This document shows positions 1 through 13,742 of a stretch of DNA of 14,632 nt, in pieces. The notes under the pieces were generated by a model. The model searched no databases and was not told where the DNA came from. It worked only from the letters and a program-made list of their open reading frames with translations. The position numbers were made by a program, and so were the translations under genes. Within the stretch, counting starts at the first letter, position 1; each line of letters begins with the position of its first letter. The DNA comes from a virus, in UHGV virus genome UHGV-0270538; one strand, given 5' to 3'.

Positions 1-690
1 AGTGGTAAGGCACCGGAAATCAAACCCTCGCCCGGCGGCGACACTCCATCGGGGCCGTCTGATGGTGACACATCCGTTCGTACAGTCTCCCTGCTGCCGA
101 CAGCCGGAGAGGCTGCTGCGCAGGGCTGGACCATCACCGGCGGCAGTGTTGCGCTGGAAGATGGTGTGTTTAAGGTTACCAAGCAGAGCAATAAAACTTG
201 GTCCCTGATGCATCCGGTGGATGACGCAGTCTCCCTGCTGACACGGGGTGGCAGACTGAGCTGTAAGTTTCGACTGTCAGGCGCACTGACCAACAACCAG
301 TTCGGTCTGGGAATTTATCTGTATACCGATGTAGCGTTACCTGACGTCGTGGCGATGACCGGGACTGGTAACCCGTTCCTGATGTCGTTCTTCACCCAGA
401 CCACAGACGGCAAACTGAATCTGATGCATCACAGGAAAGCAGGAAACACAAAGTTGGGCGAGTTCGGGAATTACAGTAACGACTGGCAGACGCTGGAGCT
501 GGTGTTCACCGCCGGCAGTGCCACGGTTACTCCGAAACTGAATGGAGTGGCTGGCCCGGCATTCCAGGTCATAAAAGACAGTCTGACACTGGGGCTGAAT
601 GCGCTGACGTTAACTGATATCACTAAAAATGCCGCGTACGGCGTCGATATCGGCAGCCTGGTGCTGGAAATCAATAATCCCGCAGCATAA
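1..690 (+). CDS. 3' part of an unknown gene (230 codons in window); Pro/Gly/Ser/Asp-rich linker followed by a beta-rich, possibly LamG/lectin-like domain
   Basis: Frame 1 is open from position 1 to TAA at 688-690, so the gene starts upstream of the window; the ORF-track start at 166 is an internal GTG. Ends 23 bp before gene R. Function not recognised; the LamG-like call rests on motif appearance only (W-x-x-L-x-L-V-F ... K-L-N-G-V). Confidence 0.55.
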   Translation, partial: SGKAPEIKPSPGGDTPSGPSDGDTSVRTVSLLPTAGEAAAQGWTITGGSVALEDGVFKVTKQSNKTWSLMHPVDDAVSLLTRGGRLSCKFRLSGALTNNQFGLGIYLYTDVALPDVVAMTGTGNPFLMSFFTQTTDGKLNLMHHRKAGNTKLGEFGNYSNDWQTLELVFTAGSATVTPKLNGVAGPAFQVIKDSLTLGLNALTLTDITKNAAYGVDIGSLVLEINNPAA

Positions 691-713
691 GGAAGAGCAG
701 GAGAGCAAAACAG

Positions 714-1181
714 ATGCTTAAGACAAACAGTCTGCGAGAGTCCATGCTTCATGGGTGTCGGTGGTGCCAGGCTAATCCCGAGAAATTCACCATTTTCGTG
801 GAGAGCGGCAACATTGAAACGACCGGGGAAGCGCCCTCGTTTGTTTACCGCTATCAGATGGTGATGTTTGTCATGGATTACGCCGGAGAGCTGGACGACC
901 TCACGCTGCCGCTGCTGGCGTGGTTATCCGAAAATCAGCCACAGTTGTTGCTCAACCCTGAGCGTAATCAGGACATCAAATTCTCCGCCGTTATCAATGA
1001 CGATGACAGCGCCGATCTCCTGTTTACGCTCCCCCTGCGGGAACGCGTTCGCGTCACGCGCAGCAGTCAGGGCACACCGCAGGCAGAACACCTGCCGGAG
1101 CCAAAACCCCGCCTGCCATCTTCCGAAGGCGACTGGTCGCATATATTCCAGGATGTGACGTGGGGTGAAAGCGATGGATAA
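714..1181 (+). CDS. R: tail completion protein R (P2 gpR-like)
   Basis: 155 aa; N-terminus MLKTNSLRES and internal LPLLAWLSENQP resemble recalled P2 gpR; ATG at 714 preceded by a purine-rich SD-like stretch; lies directly upstream of S. Confidence 0.8.
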   Translation: MLKTNSLRESMLHGCRWCQANPEKFTIFVESGNIETTGEAPSFVYRYQMVMFVMDYAGELDDLTLPLLAWLSENQPQLLLNPERNQDIKFSAVINDDDSADLLFTLPLRERVRVTRSSQGTPQAEHLPEPKPRLPSSEGDWSHIFQDVTWGESDG

Positions 1182-1809
1182 GGCATTCACCCGCGTGGAT
1201 GAAACCTTTGAGACCATCCGCGACAGCCTGAATCAGCAGGCCATCAATAACATCGCCAGAAAGCTGGCACAGGATTTACGTCGCGCCCAGCAGGCACGTA
1301 TCCGGTCACAGAAAGCGCCGGACGGGACCGCATGGACACCACGCAGACGCCGCGTAACCCGGATACAGGAGCGCATTCGCTTTATCTGGAATAACGAAGC
1401 ACGCACGCTGAAAAACTGGCATCACGACACGGGGAAATACGGGCGAACCATTACCGGGTGGGATGAGGATAAAAACAGCATCCGCACGTTTTACCGGGAT
1501 GACATCGACCGTTTTCTGGAAATACGCACCCGGCGCATCAACCAGGACAGCACAAAGCGCGTCCCCATGTTCGTAAAACTGCGCACCGCCCGCTACCTGA
1601 AAGCCCGTGCAGATGCCTCCGGTGTGACGGTGGGTTACAGCGGCGTGGCCGCACGTATTGTACGCGTTCATCAGTTCGGTGAGCGCGATCAGGTTGCGCC
1701 GGGCATTTTCACCGATTACCCGGTACGTGAGCTGCTGGGTATCAGCCAGGCAGATGAGCGCCTGATTTATAACACGGTGCTGGGCCGGATTGCGGAGGCT
1801 GTACGGTGA
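1174..1809 (+). CDS. S: tail completion / virion morphogenesis protein S (P2 gpS-like)
   Basis: ORF 1165..1809; ATG at 1174 is preferred over GTG at 1165 because GGGGTGA lies 5 nt upstream. Start overlaps the end of R and the stop overlaps the GTG start of V (GTGA), indicating translational coupling. Position between R and V matches P2 order. Confidence 0.75.
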   Translation: MDKAFTRVDETFETIRDSLNQQAINNIARKLAQDLRRAQQARIRSQKAPDGTAWTPRRRRVTRIQERIRFIWNNEARTLKNWHHDTGKYGRTITGWDEDKNSIRTFYRDDIDRFLEIRTRRINQDSTKRVPMFVKLRTARYLKARADASGVTVGYSGVAARIVRVHQFGERDQVAPGIFTDYPVRELLGISQADERLIYNTVLGRIAEAVR

Positions 1810-2387
1810 GCGCAGAACTCATGCGACTGCTGAGCAACATCATCCGCACCGGGATCATCTCTGAAGTTGATGAGAAGTCCTGGCGCGTGCGCGTTCGCAG
1901 CGGCGAACTGGAAACAGGCTGGTTGCGCTGGAACACCACGCGCGCGGGAGCCTTCAATGTGTGGCTGCCGCCATCACCAGGCGAACAGGTGGTAATTGTC
2001 TGCATTGGCGGCAACCCGGAAACCGCCATGATAATTGGCAGCCTGTGGAGTGATGCCAGTCCGGCCCCCGGCAAAAGCCTGAAAGAAATCGTGGTCAGCG
2101 CGCCGGATGGCGCGGTGTTCCGCTACGACGCAGACGCTGGCGCACTGAGCGCCAGCGGCATGAAAACAGCCACCCTGCAGGCATCCGTCAGCGTGACACT
2201 GGATACGCCCGTCGTGGAATGCACAAACCTTCTGAGAACAGCGACGCTTGACGTCACAAAAGGGGGAAAGATGAGCGGCAATATCACGCACAGCGGCGGC
2301 AATTTCACCTCAAACGGTATCACAGTGCATACGCATAAACACGGTGGCGTTAAAGGTGGCAGCGATTCGACAGGAGGCCCGCAGTGA
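1806..2387 (+). CDS. V: baseplate spike/hub protein V (P2 gpV-like)
   Basis: 193 aa; motifs IRTGII, GEQVVIVCIGGNPE, VECTNLL, TKGGKMSGNITHSGG, VHTHKH match recalled gpV; GGAGG 8 nt upstream of GTG 1806; GTGA overlap with S stop. Confidence 0.9.
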   Translation: MSAELMRLLSNIIRTGIISEVDEKSWRVRVRSGELETGWLRWNTTRAGAFNVWLPPSPGEQVVIVCIGGNPETAMIIGSLWSDASPAPGKSLKEIVVSAPDGAVFRYDADAGALSASGMKTATLQASVSVTLDTPVVECTNLLRTATLDVTKGGKMSGNITHSGGNFTSNGITVHTHKHGGVKGGSDSTGGPQ

Positions 2388-2734
2388 CAACCCGCTACAC
2401 AGGAATGAATCCGGACGGGACGGGAAACCTGAACGATACGGAGCACCTGAAACAGTCAGTCAGGGACATCCTGACCACCCCGCTGGCCAGCCGGGTTATG
2501 CGACGGGAATATGGCAGCCTTGTACCTGATTTGATTGACGAACCCATGAATAACACCACGCGTCTGCAATGCATGAGTGCTGCCGTGATTGCGCTGACAC
2601 GATGGGAACCCCGCATTGCCCTGGACGCCATCGACGTTGTCTGGAAGGCAGGAGGCCGCGCCGGGGTGACGCTGTCGGGCACTGTCATGCAGACCATGCA
2701 GAATGTTGAGTTAACCATCACGCTGAGGGAGTAA
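2384..2734 (+). CDS. W: baseplate wedge protein W (gp25-like, P2 gpW-like)
   Basis: 116 aa; MTTRYTGMN, RVMRREYGSL and WEPRI resemble gpW; CAGGAGG SD 6 nt upstream; GTGA overlap with V stop. Confidence 0.9.
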   Translation: MTTRYTGMNPDGTGNLNDTEHLKQSVRDILTTPLASRVMRREYGSLVPDLIDEPMNNTTRLQCMSAAVIALTRWEPRIALDAIDVVWKAGGRAGVTLSGTVMQTMQNVELTITLRE

Positions 2735-2737
2735 ATC

Positions 2738-3634
2738 ATGCCTGCTGTTGACCTTTCCCAGTTACCGGAACCCGCCATCATCGCGGAGCCTGATTTTGAG
2801 GCAATTCTGGCTGACACAAAGGCCATGATGATTGCGTCCTATCCTGCCGAACAGCGTGAAGCCGTCTCCGCCGCGCTGGAGCTGGAATCGGAACCCCTGA
2901 ACGTTATCGCTCAAACCATGTCTTTTCGTGAAATGCTGTTACGCCAGCGGGTTAACGAGGGCGCACGCGCCTGCATGTTAAGCCACGGTTCAGGGACAAA
3001 TCTGGACAACCTCGCGGGCAATATGAACACAAAGCGCCTGGTTATCACTCCGGCAACGGATACCACCGACGCGGTGATGGAGAGCGACACCTCGCTGAGA
3101 TTGCGGGCGCAGCGGGCGTATGACGGCCTGAGTGTTGCTGGCCCGTCAGGTGCATACGAGTATTTTGCCCGCAGCGCCAGCGGTCTGGTGCGCGATGCGC
3201 GGGCTATCAGTCCGTCTCCGGCCTGTGTGACGGTTTCCATCCTGTCCACTGAAGGCGACGGCACAGCAACGGAGGCGTTGCTTAATACCGTTCGCGCCGT
3301 TCTGAATGCAGAGGATACCCGCCCGGTGGCCGACCGCCTTACTGTACAGAGCGCCAGAATCGTGACATGGCGGCTGAATGCAAAACTGTACTTTTACCCC
3401 GGCCCGGAATCCGAACCTATTCTGGCCGCGGCGGAATCGTCATTCAGGAAGTGGCTGGCTGAACAGGGGCTTATCGGTCAGGACGTGGCGTTGTCCGCCA
3501 TTGCTGCCGCACTTCATGTGCACGGCGTGCAACGCGTGGAGATAATCGAACCCACACAGAATATGGCCATCAGCGACATACAGGCGGCGCGCTGTGAGTC
3601 ATTTACCATCAGCGAAGGTGGGCGCAATGAGTAA
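2738..3634 (+). CDS. J: baseplate assembly protein J (P2 gpJ-like)
   Basis: 298 aa; LSQLPEP, ESEPL, GLSVAGPSGAYEYF, SPSPACVT, RPVADRLTVQSA, YPGPESEPI and LHVHGVQRVE closely parallel recalled gpJ; GAGGGAG SD before ATG 2738. Confidence 0.9.
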   Translation: MPAVDLSQLPEPAIIAEPDFEAILADTKAMMIASYPAEQREAVSAALELESEPLNVIAQTMSFREMLLRQRVNEGARACMLSHGSGTNLDNLAGNMNTKRLVITPATDTTDAVMESDTSLRLRAQRAYDGLSVAGPSGAYEYFARSASGLVRDARAISPSPACVTVSILSTEGDGTATEALLNTVRAVLNAEDTRPVADRLTVQSARIVTWRLNAKLYFYPGPESEPILAAAESSFRKWLAEQGLIGQDVALSAIAAALHVHGVQRVEIIEPTQNMAISDIQAARCESFTISEGGRNE

Positions 3635-4235
3635 TTCACTGTTACCGCCATCAGCCAGCAGTTTCATGCGTTGTGCCGAAGCCGTCGGAACACGCATTAC
3701 AGACATTCCGGTAGACCTCAATACGCTGTGGTCGCCGGATACCTGCCCGGTGCATCTGCTGCCTTATCTCGCCTGGGCGTTTTCCGTTGACCGCTGGGAT
3801 CGCAACTGGCCGGAAGAGACAAAGCGACAGGTAATTCGTGATGCATGGCTGATACACCGACACAAAGGGACCATCAGCGCACTGCGAAGAGCCGTGGAGC
3901 CTCTCGGCTACCTGATTGAAGTAAAGGAGTGGTGGCAACTCAACGAGGAGCCAGGAACATTTCGCATTGTTGTCGGAGTACTTGATCAGGGCATCACCGA
4001 TGAAATGTATCAGGAACTTGAGCGCCTTGTTGCGGATGCAAAACCAGTAAGTCGCCATCTGACGGGGCTGGCGATCAGCCTGAGTGTGAACGGAAAGATT
4101 TTCGTTGGTACGGGATGCTATCACGGCGATGCCCTGACGGTTTATCCCTACACCCCGGAGTCCATTATTGTCGAAGGGGATTATTTCCCTGCCCCGGCCA
4201 TTCATTTAATTGATAATCTAAGAGTAAACGCATGA
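3627..4235 (+). CDS. I: baseplate protein I (P2 gpI-like)
   Basis: ORF track starts at 3594, but homology to gpI begins at MSNSLLPP (ATG 3627) with GAAGGTGG SD 5 nt upstream; start overlaps J stop. Motifs LWSPDTCP, LAWAFSVDRWD, HKGTI, VEPLGY, ADAKPVSRHL. Confidence 0.88.
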   Translation: MSNSLLPPSASSFMRCAEAVGTRITDIPVDLNTLWSPDTCPVHLLPYLAWAFSVDRWDRNWPEETKRQVIRDAWLIHRHKGTISALRRAVEPLGYLIEVKEWWQLNEEPGTFRIVVGVLDQGITDEMYQELERLVADAKPVSRHLTGLAISLSVNGKIFVGTGCYHGDALTVYPYTPESIIVEGDYFPAPAIHLIDNLRVNA

Positions 4236-5839
4236 CAGTGAAATACTACGCCATTCTGACTAATCAGGGCGCAGCACGACTGGCTAACGCGACGATGCTC
4301 GGCAGTAAGCTGAATCTGACGCAAATGGCCGTTGGTGATGCAAATGGTGTGTTACCAACACCAGACCCTGCACAAACAAAACTGATTAACCAGAAACGCA
4401 TTGCACCGCTGAATCTTCTGAGTGTTGACCCTAACAATCAGAGCCAGATTATTGCGGAGCAAATCATCCCTGAAAACGAGGGAGGATTCTGGATCCGTGA
4501 GATTGGTCTTTATGATGATGAAGGTGTACTCATTGCGGTGGCAAACTGCCCGGAAACGTACAAACCGCAGTTGCAGGAAGGCAGTGGACGCACCCAGACT
4601 ATCCGCATGATTCTGGTTGTCACGAACACCGAAGCCATCACGCTGAAAATCGACCCGTCTGTGGTTCTGGCAACCCGCAAATATGTGGATGATAAAATCT
4701 CAGAGCACGAACAGTCACGACGTCACCCGGACGCCTCGCTGACCGCAAAAGGTTTTACTCAGTTAAGCAGTGCAATTAACAGTGAATCAGAAACACTGGC
4801 CGCAACACCGAAAGCAGTTAAGGCTGCATATGACCTGGCTGACGGGAAATATACCGCCCAGAACGCCACCACAACACAAAAAGGGATTGTTCAGCTCAGT
4901 AGCGCCACGAACAGCACGTCTGAAACGCTGGCAGCGACACCAAAAGCTGTTAAGGCGGTAATGGATGAAACGAGCAAGAAAGCACCATTAAACAGCCCGG
5001 CACTGACCGGAACGCCAACAACACCAACAGCGCCACAGGGGACTAATAGTACCCAGATCGCAAGCACGGCTTTCGTTATGGCCGCGATTGCCGCACTTGT
5101 AGATTCGTCACCTGATGCACTGAACACGCTGAACGAACTGGCTGCGGCGCTGGGCAATGACCCGAATTTTGCGACCACCATGACTAACGCGCTTGCGGGT
5201 AAGCAACCGAAGGATGCCACCCTGACGGCGCTGGCGGAGCTTGCTACATCAGCAGATAAACTCCCATATTTTACAGGAGCAGATCGTGCCGCGTTAACCG
5301 CGTTGACAAGTGTTGGACGTGCCATTCTTGGTAAAACCAGCACTCAGGGAGTTCTTGATTACCTTGGTTTGGGAGAAGGCTCTGTATTACCCGTTGGTGT
5401 GCCTGTTCCGTGGCCTTCAGCCACACTGCCAACAGGCTGGCTGAAATGCAACGGGGCGGCATTTTCTGCTGAAGAATACCCGGAACTGGCAAAGGCTTAC
5501 CCGACAAATATATTGCCTGATTTACGTGGTGAATTTATTCGTGGCTGGGATGACGGGCGCGGAGTGGACAGTAGCCGGACGTTGTTGTCGTGGCAAAAAG
5601 GCTCTTATCTGGTTCAGGAAGCCAATATATCACCCGACAGCGTGGTGCAGTTTTCGGTAAACGACATTGCCCTGCTGGGATGGGATAAAACTGAAACCAA
5701 TTCAGATATTCTCAGAGCGAAAAGTATACCTACAGAATATATCTGGAACCCAGTTCCAGTGGGAGCCTGGGGGATTCAGTATCTGGGTTACGCAAGGCCA
5801 CGTAACATTGCATTTAACTACATCGTAAGGGCTGCATGA
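4232..5839 (+). CDS. H: tail fibre protein H, constant N-terminal part fused to the currently expressed variable C-terminal cassette
   Basis: 535 aa; ATGA overlap with I stop; N-terminal two thirds strongly resemble P2 gpH, including the repeated QLSSA-NS-SETLAATPKAVK motif. After the crossover site (5352-5377) the C-terminus carries a tail-collar-type signature (GWLKCNGAAFS ... LPDLRGEFIRGWD). Confidence 0.9.
   Translation: MTVKYYAILTNQGAARLANATMLGSKLNLTQMAVGDANGVLPTPDPAQTKLINQKRIAPLNLLSVDPNNQSQIIAEQIIPENEGGFWIREIGLYDDEGVLIAVANCPETYKPQLQEGSGRTQTIRMILVVTNTEAITLKIDPSVVLATRKYVDDKISEHEQSRRHPDASLTAKGFTQLSSAINSESETLAATPKAVKAAYDLADGKYTAQNATTTQKGIVQLSSATNSTSETLAATPKAVKAVMDETSKKAPLNSPALTGTPTTPTAPQGTNSTQIASTAFVMAAIAALVDSSPDALNTLNELAAALGNDPNFATTMTNALAGKQPKDATLTALAELATSADKLPYFTGADRAALTALTSVGRAILGKTSTQGVLDYLGLGEGSVLPVGVPVPWPSATLPTGWLKCNGAAFSAEEYPELAKAYPTNILPDLRGEFIRGWDDGRGVDSSRTLLSWQKGSYLVQEANISPDSVVQFSVNDIALLGWDKTETNSDILRAKSIPTEYIWNPVPVGAWGIQYLGYARPRNIAFNYIVRAA
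5352..5377. repeat. invertase crossover site (gix/hix-like), left; inside H at the constant/variable junction
   Basis: ttcttgattaccttggtttgggagaa; resembles recalled hixL/gix (TTCTTGAAAACC-AA-GGTTTTTGATAA). Its distal 14 bp (5364-5377) form a perfect inverted repeat with 7303-7316. Confidence 0.65.
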
Positions 5840-6456
5840 TGAGCAAGAAAATCATGACTACAGCGGTGCTGAATGAATCGCGGCTGGCAACAGTTGCAGG
5901 AGAGGTTGTTGTCCACAGCTACGATAATAAGACGCGGGAATACCTTTGCACGTCAACCGAATATCTGGCTGTGGGCGTTGGCCTTCCTGCACATTCATGC
6001 ACTGATGCCCCCGGGGAAAGGCGGGCTGGTTATGTGATTTGCCGCACTGCTGACCTGACCGCGTGGGAGTATGTGCCGGACCATCGGGGTGAGACAGTCT
6101 ATAACACAGAAACCCGTGAGGCAGCAGAAATTACCACTCCGGGTGATTACCCTGAAAACACAACCACTGTCGCACCGTTAACGCCATACGATAAATGGGA
6201 TGGTGAGGAATGGGTGACCGATACAGATGCGCAACATCGTGCCGCTGTAGAAGCGGCAGAAACACAACGCCAGTCGCTGATTGATACTGCAATGGCTTCC
6301 ATTAGTCTGATTCAGCTGAAATTACAGGCCGGGCGGAAACTGACGCAGGCAGAAACAACCCGGCTTAACGCTGTGCTGGATTACATTGACGCGGTGACGG
6401 CAACAGATACCAGTACCGCGCCGGATATCAATTGGCCTGCTCCCCCGGAGGCGTAG
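5836..6456 (+). CDS. G: tail fibre assembly chaperone G (Tfa, Mu U-like), cognate to the expressed H cassette
   Basis: 206 aa; ATGA overlap with H stop; C-terminal Tfa signature (TSTAPDINWPAPPEA); lies inside the invertible segment. Confidence 0.85.
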   Translation: MMSKKIMTTAVLNESRLATVAGEVVVHSYDNKTREYLCTSTEYLAVGVGLPAHSCTDAPGERRAGYVICRTADLTAWEYVPDHRGETVYNTETREAAEITTPGDYPENTTTVAPLTPYDKWDGEEWVTDTDAQHRAAVEAAETQRQSLIDTAMASISLIQLKLQAGRKLTQAETTRLNAVLDYIDAVTATDTSTAPDINWPAPPEA

Positions 6457-6844
6457 GCCAGACGGGATTTGATGTATCAACGCGCATCAGCAAGACCCGG
6501 TATTTTTTCCATTCAGATAACGCGGCGGTTTCTTCTGCCGTCGCGATTTCCGCATCAAAAGCATCCTGTCTCCAGACTATTTCCTTATCAGCCATAGAAC
6601 GCAATACCGTTCTTTTCTGTTCAGCCTGAATAATCTGTTGTTCAGCGGAGAGTGGCGGGATATCAATCCACGCAGGATTACCATTTTTATCAGCCCCCAG
6701 CGTTTTGCCTTCTGGCGCTACGCCTGTGTAAATTGCCATTGTTTCATCATCAACATCAGCGCCATTTTCAGGCCATGAACCGGCGCTGATATATACCTCT
6801 TTTAGTGCTTTCGGATAGAAAGAGCCTTTATAAAATTTATTCAT
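6428..6844 (-). CDS. alternative tail fibre assembly chaperone G' (Tfa), silent in this orientation
   Basis: Minus-strand ORF 6428..6874; preferred start is ATG at 6844 (MNKFYKG...), 2 nt after the H' stop with a GGGG SD-like stretch upstream. C-terminal Tfa signature (WKKYRVLLMRVDTSNPVWPTPP). Converges on G with a 29-bp 3' overlap. Confidence 0.8.
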   Translation of the reverse strand: MNKFYKGSFYPKALKEVYISAGSWPENGADVDDETMAIYTGVAPEGKTLGADKNGNPAWIDIPPLSAEQQIIQAEQKRTVLRSMADKEIVWRQDAFDAEIATAEETAALSEWKKYRVLLMRVDTSNPVWPTPPGEQAN

Positions 6845-6846
6845 TC

Positions 6847-7316
6847 TTAATACCCCAGCGCGATAAAACAACAATCTTCGGTGCCCTCTCCGGATGGCGA
6901 CCAGTTCTGAATACTGATGTGCGTTCTGCTGGCAATACGCACATTCATCGCGGCATTGTAGCCAGATGTTCCACGGTTTCCGGTCGCAAACAAGCCTGCA
7001 TAGGGAAAAGCAAATGGTAAGGCATATCCAGCATCAGCTCCCTTTTGTGTTGCCACCGTTCCCCACTGCAACATAAGTTTCACCGGGTTTCCTGTCGTCG
7101 CAATGCATGGAATGTAGATGTAGCCATTACCTGACATCATTGACCTGAAGCTGTCTAAATCCAGTAACTTCGAGGCATTATCTGCTCCAACATCTCGTGT
7201 TGCAGCGGTCCCTAACTGGAGCGCATTTCGGAAGGCTGATACATCAGAAATATCAGATCCATTAGCCGATTTCTGCATAGCTCTGGAGGCTCTATTTATC
7301 GTTTCTCCCAAACCAA
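6847..7316 (-). CDS. alternative tail fibre C-terminal cassette H' (promoterless, no own start; expressed only after inversion)
   Basis: Minus-strand open frame running from the crossover site (7303-7328) to TAA at 6847-6849. It encodes ...GLGE at the site, the same junction peptide as H (LGLGE at 5366-5377). The ORF-track Met at 7356 lies upstream of the crossover site and is probably not used. Confidence 0.7.
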
Positions 7317-7328
7317 CGTTTAAGAAAA
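7303..7328. repeat. invertase crossover site (gix/hix-like), right; inverted copy 55 bp upstream of the invertase gene
   Basis: Plus strand ttctcccaaaccaacgtttaagaaaa; reverse complement ttttcttaaacg-tt-ggtttgggagaa shares the core and a 12-bp half-site exactly with the left site. Position just upstream of the invertase gene matches Mu gixR/gin. Confidence 0.65.
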
Positions 7329-7383
7329 TGCAGAGATTACGGCTAACTGGCATCATCCCCGGTTTTTATTCAGGGGATCCATC

Positions 7384-7983
7384 ATGCTTATTGGCTATGT
7401 CCGCGTATCAACAAATGACCAGAATACAGAATTGCAGCGTAACGCGCTGGAGTGCGCAGGATGTGAACTGATTTTTGAAGATAAAATCAGCGGAACGAAA
7501 TCAGCCAGACCGGGATTGAAAAAACTGCTCAGAACGCTATCAGAAGGAGATACGCTGGTTGTCTGGAAGCTGGACAGACTGGGCAGAAGTATGAAACACC
7601 TGATCACGCTTATTGAGGAATTGCGGGAAAAAGGTGTTAATTTCCGTAGTCTGACGGACAGCATTGACACATCAACACCCATGGGGCGTTTCTTTTTTCA
7701 CGTCATGGGAGCTTTAGCCGAAATGGAACGTGAATTAATTGTAGAGCGTACACTGGCCGGGCTGGCAGCAGCACGCGCACAAGGACGCATTGGCGGACGT
7801 CGCCCGAAGTTGACAAAAGAACAACACGAGCAAATAGCGAGGCTGATTAAAAACGGTCATGACAGGAAACAACTGGCGATCATTTACGACATCGGCATAT
7901 CGACGATTTATCGTTATCACCCTGTAGGCGATATACAGGCTGAAGAAACAACCAGGCAGACTCAGGAAAATGAAAACCGCTAA
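7384..7983 (+). CDS. site-specific DNA invertase, serine recombinase of the Gin/Pin/Cin/Hin family
   Basis: 199 aa; N-terminus MLIGYVRVSTNDQNT with the catalytic Ser in VRVST; conserved VVWKLDRLGRSMKHL, SLTDSIDTS, MGRFFFHVMGALAEMERELI and a C-terminal HTH region (ISTIYRY). AGGGGA SD 6 nt before the ATG. Confidence 0.95.
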   Translation: MLIGYVRVSTNDQNTELQRNALECAGCELIFEDKISGTKSARPGLKKLLRTLSEGDTLVVWKLDRLGRSMKHLITLIEELREKGVNFRSLTDSIDTSTPMGRFFFHVMGALAEMERELIVERTLAGLAAARAQGRIGGRRPKLTKEQHEQIARLIKNGHDRKQLAIIYDIGISTIYRYHPVGDIQAEETTRQTQENENR

Positions 7984-8002
7984 TCTGACCATTAGCGGTT
8001 TT
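7973..8002. terminator. putative bidirectional intrinsic terminator between the convergent invertase and U genes
   Basis: Perfect 12-bp inverted repeat aaaaccgctaat / attagcggtttt with a 6-nt loop (ctgacc). The GC core stem is followed by a T-run on both strands. It overlaps the invertase stop codon (7981-7983) and ends 7 bp before the U stop. Confidence 0.5.
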
Positions 8003-8009
8003 GCGTTAA

Positions 8010-8504
8010 TCAAAACAGCCCTTTAACGGAGCTGGCCGCGCTGTTAAGGGATGATGTGACCTTATCTTTGAAGCCGGACAGCATATCACTGAACGATGAG
8101 GATTGCAGGCGCTCCCGCAAATCCTCATCACAGCGTTCAAGAGTCAGTGAAAATTCTATCTTTTTCGCCTTACCGTAGCGATCAAACTCGGAGCGGGTCG
8201 TATTCGTTCCGGTCAGGACATACATGCCGTAAATCTGCCCGACACCATCAATCAGAGGCCAGGGGCGTCCTGTATATGCCTGCGTGGTCAGCAACGAAAG
8301 CGACACTTCGCCACCTGTAATTTCAGGATAAAGCACGCCGGAAAGCACGATGCGATCATCACCTGCGCCGATATACTGCCAGCTTGCTGAACGGTTAACG
8401 CGTTCATTTTTCACATGCCGCCAGCTTTTGTTTTGCTGTAACTGCTGATGCGGCAATGTGCGCAGCTCAAAAACAAACATGCCGTAGATCATCATCATGG
8501 CCAT
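8010..8504 (-). CDS. U: tail protein U (sheath terminator, P2 gpU-like)
   Basis: 164 aa; MFVFELRTLPHQ, YPEITGGEVSL, WPLIDGVG and FSLTLER resemble gpU. GGAG lies only 2 nt before the first ATG, so the true start may be the third Met (8498). Confidence 0.85.
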   Translation of the reverse strand: MAMMMIYGMFVFELRTLPHQQLQQNKSWRHVKNERVNRSASWQYIGAGDDRIVLSGVLYPEITGGEVSLSLLTTQAYTGRPWPLIDGVGQIYGMYVLTGTNTTRSEFDRYGKAKKIEFSLTLERCDEDLRERLQSSSFSDMLSGFKDKVTSSLNSAASSVKGLF

Positions 8505-8510
8505 GACTCC

Positions 8511-11354
8511 TCAATCTTTATCGTAAAAACTGCCACGTCCGGCACGGTCGCGTCGTTCCAATTCTGCCCTGACCATTTCACCGACCAGTTTCGCCAGTTC
8601 GCGGGGATTCTGCGTAACAACGTTATGCAGATGAACATGAATTTCACCGCCAAATCCGGAGACAACAGGCTCCCGGTTACGGGAAGTTGCAGGAACTGAT
8701 GCCACTGGCGATCGTATGGCCTCCGCCACCGGGCGGGAGCTGGCCGCAACAACAGGGACCAGCGCCGGAGGCAGAGGAGTCGGGACCACGGGTGTGATGT
8801 TGATTGCGGAAGCAGGCTTACTGACCTGCGCAATCTTCCGCTCCTGCCACTCCCCACGAACAGCAAGTGCGCGGGGCAGATTCTTAAAGACAATATCGCC
8901 GGGGCCAATGCGTTTTTTCGTCTCATCAACCAGCTTACCTGTGTTATCAGCAATTTTGCTGAGTCTGCGTAGCGTACCGGTATTGCTGTCTGTGAGCGGT
9001 TTGTTGTCTTTGGGTTTATCACCTCCGGTGCCATTGCCATTTTCCACAGGCTTCGGCGGATTGATTTTCGCCAGGTCCCCCTGAAGCAAGGCAACCTTGT
9101 CCTGAAGAATGGCCGCACGCTGTGCGTCTTCGATTTTCTTACGCGCCCTTTCCGCTTCATCCGGAAGGACGCCAAGTTTTTCAAGTATCCACGCCAGCGT
9201 ATCCAGTAGCATTTTTGCAGGCGTCAGAACAAGTTGTAACGCACCGCCAAGAACGTTACCGAATATCTCGCCAGCACTGGTACATTTATCCAGCGTTTCC
9301 TTGCTGGACTCCATCGGTGACAACAGCGATTTAAACCAGTTAAACACCTGGCTGATCCCGCTTCCGATTGCGTCAAAAACAGGACCAAACCGTTCAAAGG
9401 TTTCGCGCAACGGGGTCAGCCTTTCCATAATCCCGCTGAACACCCCGGCAAAAAATGCCTTAATGGGTTCCCAGTATTTCCAGATGAGAACCGCCGCAGC
9501 CACAAACGCAGCAGCAATCAATCCAACCGGACTGAACAGCGCCCCGATAGCGCCTCCCAGCAAAGAAACAGAACCCGTCAGCATTCCCCACAGCGCAGGC
9601 AACACCCGGACGACATTCATTGACCGGGTAAGAATGTCAAAACCAAGACGCAGGGTGGCCAGCTTTCCGTAAAGCACCCCAATAACCAGCGACAACGAGC
9701 CAATCGTTGCAGTCATTGCCAGCAACGCACCGCCTGCTATCAGTAGCTGGCGCGTCAGTACCGGATGGGCCTGCGCCAGCGAGGTGATTTTTTCAAGCAC
9801 CCGCGTGAGCCACTGCGTGACAGAACGCAGCGGACCGTCAACCAGATCACTGATGCGAATACGAAGACCTTCCCATGCGCTGTCGAGATTTTTCAGGTCC
9901 CCATCAAGATTATCGGCCATTACTTTTGCAACGCGATCGGCCTCTCCCCTTGCCCCCTGCAATTCTCTGGTCAGTTTTTGCAGCTCTCCTGAACCAGCCG
10001 CCGCAACAAGCGTCTGTAAACCAACGAACGCCTCTTCTCCGGCGATGTCCTTGAAGAAGGAAATCTGGTCCACCTGTCCGTATTTTTGTGTCGCCTTATA
10101 GAGATCAAGCAGCACATCCTCCATCGGGCGCATTTTGCCTCTGGCGTCAGCAACTGACACCCCCAGCTCTTTCAGTGCATCAGCCGCAGCTTTTGGCGGT
10201 GATGCAAGGCGGGACAGACTTGCGCGCATGGCCGTACCAGCATCGCTTCCGCGAAGACCATTATTGGCAAGCATCCCGGCCATGGCCGCCGCTTCTTCAA
10301 GACTGATACCAAGTTTTGCGGCAACCGGACCGGTATACTTCATGGTTTCGCCCAGCGCGCGTAAATCAGTATTGGTCCGGGTGAATGCTGCTGTCAGCGT
10401 ATCGCCAACCCGGTCCATTTGATCGGCTGTCAGGTTGAACTGTGTGAGGATATTGGAGCCTATATCAGCCGTCTCGCCGAGTTCGACGCCACCTGCCAGC
10501 GCCATATTAAGAACACCGGGCAATGCGGCCTGAATGGCCTGCGGAGTAAAACCAGCCATTGCCAGAAAGCTCTGCCCACTGGCGGCATCACTCGCAGTAA
10601 ACTGTGTTTCAGAACCAAGTTTTAACGCCTGCTCACGCAGCGCCTTAAACTGCGGGCTGTTTTTGTCGATTCGCGTCAGTGCCTGAACGCGGGACATCTC
10701 TTTCCCGAACCCGATCGCAGGCTGCAAAAAACGCCCGGCAGCATAGCCGCCAGCCGCTGCCGCACCAATTGCCAGCGCACCACCTGTTTTCAGTTTTCCC
10801 GCGGTTTCCTGCGCGCGCGAATACCGCTCACGCGCCCGCGTTACACGCGCAAGCGCCTGCCGTTCGCGTTCAAGCTGGTTGTTGTACTGTTCGGTGCGTC
10901 TGATGGCCTGCTGGATGGTGTTATCGCTGCCTGTCAGGGAAATGCCGTGGCGTTTCAGCTCTCCGCCAAGCTCCCGCATTTTCTGAATTTCCCGTGTGCG
11001 CGATTCATTCAGGCGTTCAAGCCGGGTGCTTAACTGCTGCATCAGCTTTTGTTGTTTTTCGCTGAGCACTGTACCCGTGCGTTGTAACTGATTAAGGGCG
11101 TTAAGCTGGCGTCGTGCTTTCACGATACCCGCATCCGCTTTACTGACAGCGTCGCGGGCGCGCTCAAATGATCGCGCCTGACGCTCGAGATTTTTGATCG
11201 CCCCCTGCGTTCGCTGGATGGAGTCACCAAACTGCCCCATCAGGCGGCGGGCGTTTTCGGCAGGCCGGGTCAGCCTGTCAACGGCGCTGAAAGCGACCCG
11301 GATATCAAGAGTCTTCATTGTCTGCATTCCCGCTGCGAAGTGCCGCCCGCTCAC
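8511..11354 (-). CDS. T: tail tape measure protein T (P2 gpT-like)
   Basis: 947 aa, Ala/Gly/Leu-rich with coiled-coil N-terminal region and hydrophobic central segments; sits between E/E' and U. The GTG at 11354 is uncertain; in-frame ATGs at 11327 and 11318 are alternatives. Overlaps the end of E'. Confidence 0.9.
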   Translation of the reverse strand: MSGRHFAAGMQTMKTLDIRVAFSAVDRLTRPAENARRLMGQFGDSIQRTQGAIKNLERQARSFERARDAVSKADAGIVKARRQLNALNQLQRTGTVLSEKQQKLMQQLSTRLERLNESRTREIQKMRELGGELKRHGISLTGSDNTIQQAIRRTEQYNNQLERERQALARVTRARERYSRAQETAGKLKTGGALAIGAAAAGGYAAGRFLQPAIGFGKEMSRVQALTRIDKNSPQFKALREQALKLGSETQFTASDAASGQSFLAMAGFTPQAIQAALPGVLNMALAGGVELGETADIGSNILTQFNLTADQMDRVGDTLTAAFTRTNTDLRALGETMKYTGPVAAKLGISLEEAAAMAGMLANNGLRGSDAGTAMRASLSRLASPPKAAADALKELGVSVADARGKMRPMEDVLLDLYKATQKYGQVDQISFFKDIAGEEAFVGLQTLVAAAGSGELQKLTRELQGARGEADRVAKVMADNLDGDLKNLDSAWEGLRIRISDLVDGPLRSVTQWLTRVLEKITSLAQAHPVLTRQLLIAGGALLAMTATIGSLSLVIGVLYGKLATLRLGFDILTRSMNVVRVLPALWGMLTGSVSLLGGAIGALFSPVGLIAAAFVAAAVLIWKYWEPIKAFFAGVFSGIMERLTPLRETFERFGPVFDAIGSGISQVFNWFKSLLSPMESSKETLDKCTSAGEIFGNVLGGALQLVLTPAKMLLDTLAWILEKLGVLPDEAERARKKIEDAQRAAILQDKVALLQGDLAKINPPKPVENGNGTGGDKPKDNKPLTDSNTGTLRRLSKIADNTGKLVDETKKRIGPGDIVFKNLPRALAVRGEWQERKIAQVSKPASAINITPVVPTPLPPALVPVVAASSRPVAEAIRSPVASVPATSRNREPVVSGFGGEIHVHLHNVVTQNPRELAKLVGEMVRAELERRDRAGRGSFYDKD

Positions 11355-11834
11355 GCCAGCTAACCACTTCGCCGGGCGTCATCATGAAGATTTCGGCGGG
11401 CGACCAGTTAAAAATGGCGGCAATATCCGCCACAAAGTCTTCTATGTGCTCAAAGCACACAACCGTGATCAGGCTTCCGTCGCCTGTTCGCTCTTCCCGC
11501 CAGAGTCCGCACCGCTCAAAAAATTTACGGCAACCACACATAACTGAATAAAATCACGGGATGCCATTTTTTTGATCGTCACTTCATCCAGTCGTGGCGA
11601 GGTCACGCGTGACAGCAGCGTAAACATGGATTCCGCTTTCAGATTCAGCACATCAGACAGCGACAAATCTCGCAGAGATCCAGCCTGCTCAATAGCCCCG
11701 GTGATCTCCACATACGTGATTTTTTCGCCGCCTCGCTCAATTGGTTGGGTAAGTTTTACGCCACGCTCACTGGTTTCTTTCACAGTGTCAGTAACTACCG
11801 TGTTTTCGGTATCGATGTTTTTCGTCTCTTTCAT
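11305..11834 (-). CDS. E': tail assembly chaperone E+E' fusion made by programmed -1 ribosomal frameshift (about 176 aa)
   Basis: The -1 frame is open from 11553 down to TGA at 11305-11307. Slippery heptamer U-UUU-UUG at 11523..11517 on the coding strand, in frame as AAU-UUU-UUG (N-F-L). Same heptamer and gene position as P2 E/E'. Confidence 0.7.
11469..11834 (-). CDS. E: tail assembly chaperone E (P2 gpE-like; lambda G analogue)
   Basis: 121 aa, acidic; AAGGAG SD 8 nt upstream of ATG 11834; lies between FII and T and contains the T-TTT-TTG slippery site. Confidence 0.8.
   Translation of the reverse strand: MKETKNIDTENTVVTDTVKETSERGVKLTQPIERGGEKITYVEITGAIEQAGSLRDLSLSDVLNLKAESMFTLLSRVTSPRLDEVTIKKMASRDFIQLCVVAVNFLSGADSGGKSEQATEA
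11517..11523 (-). other. programmed -1 frameshift slippery heptamer TTTTTTG (E to E')
   Basis: Plus strand caaaaaa at 11517-11523; on the minus strand it reads T-TTT-TTG in the E frame, with an open -1 frame downstream. Confidence 0.75.
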
Positions 11835-11888
11835 CAGGAAACTCCTTTCAGTCAGAGGCGACGCACTGCGCCGCCTGCATATTACTTA

Positions 11889-12401
11889 TCAGCCAAGCCC
11901 GAGCGCGGAACGGATGCGATCGGGCACAATGTCCTTGCCGTCCTTCCGGTAGATGTGGTTCAACAGGTCGATTTCCCACAGCGGGCGATCGTTAACGCTC
12001 AGCTTGTAGTAGGTGTTTTTGACAGCGTAAGTGTGTGATGTGGCTTCGCCCTGTTTGGCCTCCCCCATATCAATTTCCGTCACACGCCCGCGCATCTCGA
12101 TTTCATACAGATCGCTTTCTGCATCGGTGTAGTATTCACCCGCAAAACGCAGCAGCGTGCTGTCAATCGTGCCGCCATATTTAAGGAACAGCGCACGAAC
12201 AGCTCCCCCCATGACAAAGCTCGCATCAAGCGCGGAGTCGTCCAGACCGAGATCAATACTTACCGCACCCATCATGCCACCACCCCGGTAGCTGTCGGTT
12301 TTGCGCGTCAGCTTAGGCAGAGTGACGGACGTCACCTTACCCACTTCGTTTTCACCATCCACAAACAGCGTAAAAAAGCGAAGATGTTTTGGTACAGCCA
12401 T
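11889..12401 (-). CDS. FII: tail tube protein FII (P2 gpFII-like)
   Basis: 170 aa; VTLPKLTRK, YRGGGM, IDLGLDD, RFAG and EIDMGEAKQGE resemble gpFII; GGGAGG SD; start overlaps FI stop by 1 nt (TGATG). Confidence 0.9.
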   Translation of the reverse strand: MAVPKHLRFFTLFVDGENEVGKVTSVTLPKLTRKTDSYRGGGMMGAVSIDLGLDDSALDASFVMGGAVRALFLKYGGTIDSTLLRFAGEYYTDAESDLYEIEMRGRVTEIDMGEAKQGEATSHTYAVKNTYYKLSVNDRPLWEIDLLNHIYRKDGKDIVPDRIRSALGLG

Positions 12402-13585
12402 CAGGCACCTCCCAGCACCGCAAATGCGGGACCAAAGAATTCATCAGTAAACGTCTGGTAAAGCTCCATGTCTTCCAGTGGCGGAACGGGCGTATATTTG
12501 TAGCGAATACGCACACGTCCCTGACGTAAATCCGTGGTGCCGTTATCCACCACGTCATACCAGCACTCCGCGCCAATCAGTTTCCCGGCAGTAACCAGCG
12601 AATCCAGTTTTGCCCTGATGGCACTGATAACATCCTTCACGTTCGCAGGCGTCAGTGGACTGTCGATGGTTTCAAACTGCGCTTCCGCAATTGAATCAGC
12701 CAGCACCTGTGCGGTTCGGGTATACACCTCAAAGATGTAGGCGTTCGTTTCCGGTGTGCGGTTGCCCCAGAAGCGGAACCCGTTACGACGAATAATGGTC
12801 GTGATTTCTTTGTTGTTGAGGCTGTTGGCATCACTGTCTTCGGCCTGTAACGACCAGAACACATGCCTCGACATCCCCAGCACATTTTTAACCGGAACGT
12901 TGGACAGCGATTTGTGCCAGCCCTGCTCATGGTCAATGTACGCACGAAGGCCGCACGCATAAGCAGGCGCGGGGAACGTTTCGTTTTTGCCACTTTTCGG
13001 GTTGTAGGCGATGAAGTCCGGCCATAAGAGCATCACCTCACGTTCGTTGAATTTCTGGCGGTAGGTAATTGCCTCAGCCATCGTGTTACAGTCATGACAT
13101 GAGGCATACACAAACGCGCGCAGTTTACCCGCAATCACGCACAGGGATTTTGTCACCGCCTCCGTGTCCAGCTCCGGCGCGGCCAGAATACGCGGACGGT
13201 ATCCGATGCTTTCATCCTGCTCTGCAACAAGCAGCGCATACATCCCCGTATAGCTGCCGTCAGATTCAGAACCACCGATAACCAGTTGATCCTGCGTCTT
13301 ACCGCCTTCTTCTTTGTGTTCAGCCACGCGAACGACGATCACTTTTGTGCTCACCTGGTCTGCAATAGCCTTAAGCGCACGATAAAGCGTCCCCGTAGTC
13401 CCGCATTTTCCCAGCACGTCATTGACGCGGGTCAGCAGTGTGGGCTTGTTCAGCGGGAACAGCTCCGCGTCCGCATCATCCGCCGTTGCCACGATACCGA
13501 TAACACTGGAATCAACATCATTAATCGCTGTTACCAGGTCGGTACTTTCCGTAACACGGGCACCATGAAAACGAGTTTCACTCAT
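12401..13585 (-). CDS. FI: contractile tail sheath protein FI (P2 gpFI-like)
   Basis: 394 aa; FPLNKP, KLRAFVY, YRQ-F, WPDF, DHEQGWHKSLSNV, IRRNGFRFWGNRT, YTRTAQV and YKYTPVPPLE match recalled gpFI; AAGGGG SD 8 nt before the ATG. Confidence 0.95.
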   Translation of the reverse strand: MSETRFHGARVTESTDLVTAINDVDSSVIGIVATADDADAELFPLNKPTLLTRVNDVLGKCGTTGTLYRALKAIADQVSTKVIVVRVAEHKEEGGKTQDQLVIGGSESDGSYTGMYALLVAEQDESIGYRPRILAAPELDTEAVTKSLCVIAGKLRAFVYASCHDCNTMAEAITYRQKFNEREVMLLWPDFIAYNPKSGKNETFPAPAYACGLRAYIDHEQGWHKSLSNVPVKNVLGMSRHVFWSLQAEDSDANSLNNKEITTIIRRNGFRFWGNRTPETNAYIFEVYTRTAQVLADSIAEAQFETIDSPLTPANVKDVISAIRAKLDSLVTAGKLIGAECWYDVVDNGTTDLRQGRVRIRYKYTPVPPLEDMELYQTFTDEFFGPAFAVLGGA

Positions 13586-13742
13586 AGCTTCAGCCCCTTG
13601 TATCCGTTAAATGATTCGGCAACAATCATCACCCACCACGCGCGTAATCTCACCCCTGCGCCGTTCTCCCGCCACGGCGACAACAAAAAGCAGTAACCCC
13701 CTATGCACGCACATGCGACCATGCCGCACAGGGAGGGAACAG

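What the first reader, a model, noticed from the sequence alone, without database searches (positions are those of the whole stretch)
5352..7328. Gin/Hin-type invertible tail-fibre switch with two alternative fibre C-termini and cognate chaperones
Two 26-bp gix/hix-like sites in inverted orientation bracket a 1977-bp segment. They share a perfect 14-bp inverted repeat (5364-5377 and 7303-7316) and both encode G-L-G-E in the fibre reading frame. The segment holds Hv-G on the plus strand and G'-H'v on the minus strand, with the invertase gene 55 bp beyond the right site. In the present orientation the tail-collar-type C-terminus and G are expressed; inversion would fuse the constant part of H (up to 5363) to the unrelated H' cassette. 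This is a host-range phase-variation switch.
Basis: partly seen in the sequence, partly recalled or inferred. Interest (0 to 1): 0.55.

Follow-up and report, generated by a model that had tools for sequence, protein, structure and literature searches.

The report
Pin-type invertible tail-fibre switch, P2-like prophage
This is an ordinary, already well-described phage DNA switch: an invertase flips a 2-kb segment so that an E. coli P2-like prophage makes one of two alternative tail-fibre tips, and public genomes hold the same prophage in both orientations.

Summary
Two 26-bp sites (5352-5377, 7303-7328) are the only matches in the window to the Gin/Cin/Pin site consensus (0.01 expected by chance). 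They lie in inverted orientation and share a perfect 14-bp repeat. Both encode G-L-G-E in the fibre frame.

Between the sites lie Hv (Collar domain) plus chaperone G on the plus strand, and chaperone G' plus H'v (gp53-like C-terminus) on the minus strand. An intact serine invertase starts 55 bp beyond the right site. It is 82.5% identical to PinE, 75% to Cin and 73% to Gin.

In-silico inversion gives an in-frame 533-aa fibre. That flipped state exists in nature. E. coli TOE17 carries a 98-99% identical prophage with 5364-7319 precisely inverted. A contig from the same prophage lineage (GCA_041201195.1) carries the flipped junction.

The invertase is 97.5% identical to that of a P2-like prophage of EPEC E2348/69. 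Inversion in that strain's P2-like prophages was shown by sequencing and PCR in 2014.

Refinements: the sites are closest to pix of e14, and the Fis enhancer probably lies at 7402-7473 inside the invertase gene. Host-range change is inferred by analogy. Already known; low interest.

The parts
4232..5363 (+). Constant part of tail-fibre gene H (codons 1-377), kept in both orientations
   Evidence: ORF 4232-5839. Pfam Phage_tail_fib N-terminal domain 1-150 and two fibre repeats. 98-99% identical to the constant part in TOE17 and ES4, where it is joined to the other cassette.
5352..5377 (+). Left recombination site (pix-like), TTCTTGATTACC|TT|GGTTTGGGAGAA; crossover at central TT 5364-5365
   Evidence: 22/26 identical to the e14 site in stfP/ycfK. 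The alignment breakpoints of the flipped alleles fall here.
5364..5839 (+). Hv: variable C-terminus of H now expressed (tail-collar type)
   Evidence: Pfam Collar domain at residues 389-436 of the 535-aa H. 87.6% nt identity to HK97 stf/tfa starting exactly at the site. 92.6% identical to e14 stfE over the first 200 nt.
5836..6456 (+). G: tail-fibre assembly chaperone cognate to Hv (start 5836 or 5854)
   Evidence: Pfam Caudo_TAP, E 4.9e-33. Called as 200 aa in related contigs.
6428..6844 (-). G': tail-fibre assembly chaperone cognate to H'v, silent in this orientation
   Evidence: Pfam Caudo_TAP, E 2.2e-31. Apart from the C-terminal WPxPP motif it has no similarity to G.
6847..7316 (-). H'v: alternative fibre C-terminus (gp53-like), silent in this orientation
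   Evidence: Pfam Gp53-like_C, E 1.4e-8. Unrelated to Hv. Fused in frame to the constant part of H in TOE17, ES4 and phage vB_EcoM-640R3.
7303..7328 (+). Right recombination site (pix-like), TTCTCCCAAACC|AA|CGTTTAAGAAAA; crossover at central AA 7315-7316
   Evidence: 25/26 identical to the e14 site in stfE.
7384..7983 (+). DNA invertase (small serine recombinase, Pin/Cin/Gin family), outside the invertible segment
   Evidence: Pfam Resolvase + HTH_7. E 1e-91 to the Gin structures 4m6f/3uj3. 82.5% identical to PinE, 75.3% to Cin, 73.3% to Gin and 97.5% to the invertase of an E2348/69 P2-like prophage.
7402..7473 (.). Predicted Fis-dependent recombinational enhancer inside the invertase gene (inferred)
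   Evidence: It is positionally equivalent to the annotated Cin enhancer, nt 19-90 of cin in the P1 record. It is 79-85% nt identical to P1, Mu and e14, against 64-68% for the rest of the gene. Identical codons at conserved residues: 17/25 here against 30/102 elsewhere, Fisher p = 0.0009.
7973..8002 (.). 12-bp perfect hairpin between the converging invertase and gpU genes; likely terminator
   Evidence: (I12).

Best explanation
The region is a Pin/Cin/Gin-type site-specific DNA inversion switch in the tail-fibre operon of a P2-like (Peduoviridae) prophage of Escherichia coli.

The invertase (7384-7983) binds as dimers to the two 26-bp sites. With host Fis bound to an enhancer in the 5' part of its own gene, it cuts both sites at the central TT/AA dinucleotide and rotates one half of the complex by 180 degrees. 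It then religates, which inverts about 1.95 kb.

The left site lies inside gene H, and both cassettes carry the same G-L-G-E codons at the site. Either orientation therefore gives an in-frame fibre:
- H(1-378) + Collar-type tip + chaperone G. This is the present state, 535 aa.
- H(1-378) + gp53-like tip + chaperone G'. This is the flipped state, 533 aa.

A lysogen population would thus release particles with two receptor specificities.

Shown here: the sites, the genes, the in-frame fusion, and both orientations in near-identical natural prophages. Inferred: Fis/enhancer dependence, the inversion rate, and a difference in host range between the two fibres.
For: - Only two consensus sites occur in the window, at the reported coordinates (0.01 expected by chance). 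The same pattern finds the annotated gix, cix and pix sites.
- The invertase is intact. The catalytic Ser9 and the R7, D64, R65 and R68 context are identical to Gin.
- In-silico inversion yields a 533-aa ORF.
- In TOE17 the flanks are 99.3% and 97.7% identical and colinear, while 5364-7319 is reversed at 98.9% identity. Its fused H reads through for 533 aa.
- Contigs carrying the identical 935-aa tape-measure protein occur in both states. L012 and L013 match the window. L014 has the right flank joined to 5361-5474 in the forward direction. L016 ends exactly at 7303.
- The present junction is found at >=80% coverage in 98 E. coli records and the flipped junction in 16.
- The enhancer-equivalent stretch shows excess synonymous conservation.
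- P2-like prophage inversion was shown experimentally in E2348/69 (PMC4272514).
Against: - No read-level data for this genome were available, so ongoing inversion in this very strain is not shown.
- The left site's outer half (TTCTTGATTACC) deviates at 3 consensus positions.
- No sigma-70-like promoter for the invertase was found by the simple scan.
- The Fis sites were not identified with confidence.
- No experiment links these two fibre tips to particular receptors.
Confidence: 0.93

Rival explanations
1. Frozen relic. The architecture is that of a switch, but in this genome it no longer inverts, for example because the invertase is not expressed or the divergent left outer half-site binds poorly. 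The orientation would then be fixed.
For: The left site has 3 mismatches to the consensus. No promoter-like site lies upstream of the invertase. The closely related TOE17 prophage is decaying, with an IS1 insertion and a frameshifted integrase.
Against: The left site is identical in TOE17 and ES4, which are in the opposite state. Both states occur among contigs with an identical tape-measure protein. The invertase ORF is intact and all family-invariant residues are kept.
Confidence: 0.04
2. The orientation differences between strains arose by general (RecA-dependent) recombination between the short inverted repeats, or by cassette replacement through horizontal exchange. They would not be due to invertase-catalysed site-specific inversion.
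For: Tail-fibre cassettes are mosaic. ES4 and 2017.15.02CC share only one of the two cassettes with the window. Cassette homologies to HK97, e14 and P1-like plasmids start at the site.
Against: The repeat is only 14-17 bp, which from general knowledge is too short for efficient RecA recombination. In TOE17 the whole 1956-bp segment is the same DNA (98.9%) simply reversed, with breakpoints inside the site. A cognate invertase is adjacent. Homologous systems invert in clonal cultures (PMC4272514).
Confidence: 0.02
3. The mechanism is the same, but the beneficiary is the host. The prophage is defective, and the switch varies the target range of tailocin-like killing particles or has another host-level role, not the host range of a viable phage.
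For: The TOE17 relative lacks replication genes and has a frameshifted integrase. Some relatives have a shortened gpD call. P2-type tailocins with invertible fibres are known, such as carotovoricin Er and xenorhabdicin, both cited in PMC4272514.
Against: TOE17 still has a full head gene set. vB_EcoM-640R3 and phage 500465-2 are deposited as phages with the same architecture. The window shows only intact tail genes, and nothing here indicates loss of phage function in the source genome.
Confidence: 0.08

Closest known systems
P-region / Pin invertase of the e14 cryptic prophage of E. coli K-12 (stfP-tfaP / tfaE-stfE, pinE)
   Same: The layout is the same: fibre-tfa, then tfa'-fibre' on the opposite strand, then the invertase outside the segment. 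The sites are nearly identical (right 25/26, left 22/26, same TT/AA core). The invertase is 82.5% identical. The Collar-type cassette is homologous to stfE-tfaE (92.6% and 78% nt).
   Different: e14 is a lambdoid remnant with a truncated fibre gene. Here the switch sits in the H gene of a P2-type contractile-tail module, and the constant part is a full-length P2 H N-terminus. The gp53-like cassette is not the e14 stfP cassette at the nucleotide level (no hit).
Invertible tail-fibre loci of the P2-like prophages of EPEC E2348/69 (Goldberg et al. 2014, PMC4272514)
   Same: The prophage type and gene order are the same (I, H, tfa, inverted cassettes, invertase, then U-T-E-FII-FI on the opposite strand). 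The invertase is 97.5% identical. The flanks are 92-97% identical. Both orientations were shown by sequencing and PCR to coexist in clonal cultures.
   Different: The E2348/69 locus fetched here has three sites (at 6103, 7654 and 8093 of L007) and so three possible C-termini, shufflon-like. The window has only two sites and two cassettes, each with its own chaperone.
G segment / Gin of phage Mu and C segment / Cin of phage P1
   Same: The logic is the same: a constant fibre N-terminus, two alternative C-termini with cognate chaperones (S/U and S'/U'), 26-bp sites, and an invertase outside the segment with an enhancer in its 5' coding region. The invertase is 73-75% identical. The constant part of H next to the site is 68-70% nt identical to P1 Sc, ending at cixR.
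   Different: The segments differ in size (3 kb in Mu, 4.2 kb in P1, 1.95 kb here). The gix core is TC/GA, whereas here it is TT/AA as in cix and pix. In P1 cin lies next to the Sv' (silent-cassette) side of the segment and is transcribed towards it. Here the invertase also lies on the silent-cassette side but is transcribed away from the segment. The cassettes are unrelated to Mu S/S'.
Hin/hix flagellar phase variation of Salmonella; Fin of the Fels-2 P2-like prophage; carotovoricin Er fibre inversion
   Same: They belong to the same Fis/enhancer-dependent serine invertase family. Fels-2 and carotovoricin are P2-type tails with invertible fibre genes. This rests on my own knowledge and on references 43 and 46 of PMC4272514; those papers are not held in the library.
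   Different: Hin flips a promoter, not coding cassettes. None of these sequences was compared here.

Membership tests
Fis/enhancer-dependent DNA invertases (Hin/Gin/Cin/Pin) | Small serine recombinase of about 190 aa, with an N-terminal catalytic domain carrying the nucleophilic Ser near position 9-10 and a C-terminal HTH DNA-binding domain | tested here: met
   Pfam Resolvase (E 6e-52) + HTH_7 (E 1.4e-12). E 1e-91 to Gin 4m6f over residues 1-185. S9, R7, D64, R65 and R68 are invariant in the alignment with PinE, Gin and Cin.
Fis/enhancer-dependent DNA invertases (Hin/Gin/Cin/Pin) | Two 26-bp sites in inverted orientation, each made of two imperfect 12-bp inverted half-sites around a 2-bp asymmetric core that is identical in both sites | tested here: met
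   The half-sites are TTCTTGATTACC / TTCTCCCAAACC and TTCTCCCAAACC / TTTTCTTAAACG, with core TT in both when read in the same sense. These are the only two consensus matches in the window. The same pattern recovers the annotated gix, cix and pix sites.
Fis/enhancer-dependent DNA invertases (Hin/Gin/Cin/Pin) | Recombinational enhancer with two Fis sites in cis, natively inside the 5' end of the invertase gene | tested here: inconclusive
   The region equivalent to the annotated P1 enhancer is 79-85% nt identical to P1, Mu and e14, against 64-68% for the rest of the gene. It also shows excess identical codons (p = 0.0009). Two G-N13-C 15-mers (7405-7419 and 7454-7468) are candidate Fis sites by my reading only. 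Fis binding cannot be tested with these tools.
Fis/enhancer-dependent DNA invertases (Hin/Gin/Cin/Pin) | Residues that contact Fis/enhancer and are unique to invertases (Hin Gln151, Arg154, Leu155; basic helix-B residues; PMC3798978) | tested here: met
   Q150, R153 and L154 are invariant across the window, PinE, Gin and Cin. The helix-B segment RPGLKKLLR keeps the basic residues. The criterion is quoted from PMC3798978.
Fis/enhancer-dependent DNA invertases (Hin/Gin/Cin/Pin) | The segment actually inverts, with exchange inside the sites | tested here: met
   The evidence is comparative, not experimental. TOE17 has 5364-7319 reversed with colinear flanks. L014 of the same lineage carries the flipped junction. 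The flipped junction occurs in 16 E. coli records. Read-level evidence for the source strain was not available.
Phage tail-fibre host-range switches (Mu G, P1 C, e14 P type) | The left site lies inside the fibre gene, so a constant N-terminus is fused in frame to either of two C-termini, each followed by its own assembly chaperone | tested here: met
   The ORFs are 535 aa (present state) and 533 aa (in-silico flipped). The tips are Collar-type and Gp53-like_C. There are two Caudo_TAP genes. The tips are unrelated to each other.
Phage tail-fibre host-range switches (Mu G, P1 C, e14 P type) | The two orientations give particles with different receptor or host specificity | not testable with these tools
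   This is inferred from the unrelated tip domains and by analogy with Mu, P1 and carotovoricin Er. There are no adsorption data.
P2-like phages (Peduoviridae) | P2-type tail and baseplate gene set (R, S, V, W, J, I, H, G; FI, FII, E, T, U, D) | tested here: met
   Pfam hits for Baseplate_J, Tail_P2_I and Phage_P2_GpU. Gene calls in identical-lineage contigs list GpR, tail_S, base_V, GPW, sheath, tube, GpE and GPD. 95-97% nt identity to phage 500465-2, a Gemsvirus. FI-U lie on the opposite strand compared with P2 itself.

The most novel reading that the evidence does not exclude
In this serS-linked lineage the prophage may be decaying, as in TOE17, where IS1 has replaced the early region and the integrase is frameshifted. 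The fibre switch would then be kept for the host's benefit, as a phase-variable tailocin-like weapon. Alternatively, its Pin-type invertase could drive inversions in other prophages of the same genome in trans.
Probability: 0.06. Interest if true: 0.4.

Novelty: already known. Interest (0 to 1): 0.12.

Why it matters
It matters little beyond correct annotation.

- The locus explains why gene callers report a free-standing 169-aa 'gp53-like' protein, and why they mark the H gene as a pseudogene in flipped relatives.
- It also explains why draft assemblies break at this point.
- Both fibre tips should be considered when predicting the host range of this prophage family.
- Biologically it is one more instance of bet-hedging on receptor specificity by a temperate phage. 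The phenomenon has been described since the 1980s for Mu, P1 and e14. It was demonstrated in P2-like E. coli prophages in 2014.

Tried and rejected
- I looked for further or relic sites that would make this a multi-site shufflon, or that would explain why the FI-U tail module is inverted relative to P2. With up to 7 mismatches to the 26-bp consensus, or up to 1 to the half-site, nothing credible appears besides the two sites. No site lies at the borders of the tail module.
- I looked for an invertase promoter with the simple sigma-70 scan. None was found, which is uninformative.
- I looked for similarity between Hv and H'v and between G and G'. There is none beyond a C-terminal WPxPP motif.
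- An exact look-up of the 947-aa tape-measure ORF found nothing, because the GTG start is too far upstream. The 935-aa version worked.
- I tried to read Kutsukake 2006 and Nguyen 2001 for Fels-2 and carotovoricin. Neither is held in the library.
- No complete E. coli genome covers >=80% of 4232-8010 in one colinear place. This is explained by flipped orientation and cassette mosaicism, not by novelty.
Full report
**1. Observation**

The sequence at 5352-5377 reads TTCTTGATTACC TT GGTTTGGGAGAA. The sequence at 7303-7328 reads TTCTCCCAAACC AA CGTTTAAGAAAA.

The inner halves are exact reverse complements. This gives a perfect 14-bp inverted repeat (5364-5377 / 7303-7316), which extends to 17 nt with one mismatch (pair I3).

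I wrote a consensus for the Gin/Cin/Pin/Hin site, TTNTCNNAAACCNNGGTTTNNGANAA, and allowed three mismatches. It matches exactly these two places in the 14.6-kb window. The chance expectation is 0.01, and none of 200 shuffles reaches two hits.

The same pattern, run on public records, finds only the annotated crossover sites:
- The G-segment boundaries of Mu.
- cixL and cixR of P1, centred on the annotated crossover points.
- Two sites inside stfP and stfE of e14.

Relaxing the pattern to 7 mismatches, or scanning for half-sites, gives no third site.

Both sites encode G-L-G-E in the fibre frame. The invertase ATG (7384) is 55 bp beyond 7328. The only refinement is that the DNA that flips spans the two central dinucleotides, 1951 bp centre to centre. 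The 1977-bp figure includes both sites.

**2. Anatomy**

| Part | Coordinates | Evidence |
|---|---|---|
| H | 4232-5839, 535 aa | P2-type fibre N-terminal domain, two fibre repeats, Collar domain at residues 389-436, downstream of the site |
| G | 5836-6456 | Caudo_TAP chaperone |
| G' | 6844->6428, minus strand | Caudo_TAP chaperone |
| H'v | 7316->6847, minus strand | Gp53-like_C domain |

Hv and H'v have no detectable similarity (E = 27). G and G' share only a C-terminal WPxPP motif.

The 199-aa protein at 7384-7983 has Resolvase and HTH_7 domains. It matches the Gin crystal structures at E 1e-91. It is 82.5% identical to PinE of e14, 75.3% to Cin and 73.3% to Gin. The catalytic serine context and the invertase-specific Fis-contact residues (Q150, R153, L154 here) are conserved. 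The criterion for those residues comes from PMC3798978.

The surrounding genes are P2-type R, S, V, W, J and I upstream. Downstream, U, T, E, FII and FI lie on the minus strand, followed by D on the plus strand. Phage 500465-2 (Gemsvirus) and many E. coli prophages share this layout.

**3. Does it invert?**

Reversing 5365-7315 in silico gives an uninterrupted 533-aa H ending in the gp53-like tip. That state exists in nature.

- **E. coli TOE17 (NZ_CP069093.1).** Window 264-5377 aligns colinearly at 99.3% and 7303-10463 colinearly at 97.7%. In contrast, 5364-7319 aligns reversed at 98.9%. The three alignments overlap only within the inverted repeat. The TOE17 fused gene translates without interruption to 533 aa, although RefSeq splits it into a pseudogene plus a 'gp53-like' gene.
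- **Other relatives.** ES4 and phage vB_EcoM-640R3 also have the gp53-like cassette fused to H.
- **The same lineage.** I looked at contigs that encode the identical 935-aa tape-measure protein. Two have the window's orientation at 99.7% identity. One (GCA_041201195.1) has the invertase-side flank joined to 5361-5474 in the forward sense, which is the flipped junction. Another contig ends exactly at 7303.
- **Complete E. coli genomes.** The present junction is found at >=80% coverage in 98 records and the flipped junction in 16.

This evidence is comparative. Read-level proof for the source strain was not available.

**4. Mechanism**

By homology, the mechanism is that of the Fis/enhancer-dependent serine invertases:
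- Dimers bind the two sites and synapse at a Fis-bound enhancer.
- All four strands are cleaved with a 2-nt stagger at the core.

The cores are TT on the same sense in both sites, which is compatible with inversion.

The P1 record annotates the Cin enhancer at nt 19-90 of cin. The equivalent stretch here is 7402-7473. It is 79-85% identical at the DNA level to P1, Mu and e14, against 64-68% for the rest of the gene. Among residues conserved with Gin, 17 of 25 codons in this stretch are identical, against 30 of 102 elsewhere (Fisher p = 0.0009). This supports a DNA-level constraint consistent with an enhancer. Fis binding itself is inferred.

A perfect 12-bp hairpin (7973-8002) separates the converging invertase and U genes.

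The functional outcome, two receptor specificities, is inferred from the unrelated tip domains and by analogy with Mu, P1 and carotovoricin.

**5. Comparison with what is known**

- **e14.** The sites are closest to those of e14 (25/26 and 22/26). The Collar cassette is homologous to stfE-tfaE of e14 and to stf-tfa of HK97, and that homology begins exactly at the site.
- **P1-like plasmids.** The gp53-like junction recurs at 89.5% in P1-like plasmids.
- **P1 S.** The constant part of H next to the site is 68-70% identical to P1 Sc up to cixR. This is the familiar mosaic pattern of tail-fibre evolution.
- **E2348/69.** The invertase is 97.5% identical to that of a P2-like prophage of EPEC E2348/69, which carries three such sites. 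Goldberg et al. 2014 showed by whole-genome sequencing and PCR that the invertible loci of both P2-like prophages of that strain flip in clonal cultures. One of them is a three-repeat shufflon (PMC4272514).
- **Survey data.** A 2024 preprint also notes DNA invertases with inverted neighbouring genes in the P2-like receptor-binding-protein hotspot.

**6. Verdict**

The finding is real and correctly interpreted. It is an already known kind of element, and near-identical copies in both orientations are in public databases. I rate its interest low.

Two points remain uncertain. The first is whether the switch is still active in the source strain, which is very likely. The second is what the two fibres recognise.

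Noticed in passing
window 1-690 (+): An open frame runs from the window start to the stop at 690. It is the C-terminus of a 626-aa protein with DUF1737, SASA (sialate O-acetylesterase-type) and DUF6645 domains. The gene is inserted between lysC and gpR in this lineage and in TOE17, but it is absent from phage 500465-2, ES4 and 2017.15.02CC. It looks like a cargo gene in the late operon, and from memory it resembles the NanS-p esterases of Stx phages.
   Followed up: partly
window 8010-13585 (-) and 13611-14632 (+): The tail module FI-FII-E-T-U lies on the strand opposite to V-W-J-I-H-G, and D lies on the plus strand after it. In P2 itself all of these genes are co-directional. The same layout is seen in phage 500465-2, E2348/69, TOE17 and others, so it is a lineage trait. 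No relic invertase sites flank the module. FI and D diverge across a short spacer.
   Followed up: partly
L006 3969-5573 (TOE17) and L005 (ES4): RefSeq annotates the flipped H gene as a pseudogene fragment plus a separate 'gp53-like domain-containing protein'. In TOE17 the sequence translates as one intact 533-aa ORF. The ES4 gene was not translated here. For TOE17 this looks like an annotation artefact of the invertible fibre.
   Followed up: yes
window 7317-7356 (-): In the silent orientation the H'v frame stays open across the right site to an ATG at 7356, outside the segment. Gene callers therefore report a free-standing 169-aa protein. The Mu record shows the same effect for S'. It is probably not a real start.
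   Followed up: partly
L016 end (= window 7303), L015, L009 end (= window 6516), L014 end (= window 5474): Several draft and metagenome contigs of the same prophage stop at or inside the invertible segment. This is as expected if the reads contain both orientations, or if the cassettes are repeated in other prophages of the same genome.
   Followed up: partly
window 6428-6456: The converging chaperone genes G and G' overlap by 29 bp at their 3' ends. Both proteins end with a W-P-x-P-P motif.
   Followed up: no
L007 6103, 7654, 8093 (E. coli E2348/69): The homologous prophage of EPEC E2348/69 has three copies of the site core, one in H and two inverted. This fits the three-repeat 'shufflon' reported for one of its P2-like prophages, but the spacings here (about 1.55 and 1.99 kb) do not exactly equal the published 1.8 and 2.2 kb.
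   Followed up: partly
L012/L014 3467-4267 versus L013/L015 3467-4576; L008 34834-35687: gpD is called as 266 aa in some members of the lineage and 369 aa in others, and a small pseudogene is annotated upstream in TOE17 and 2017.15.02CC. In the window the D frame is open from 13611 to the window end. D may be degraded in some relatives.
   Followed up: no
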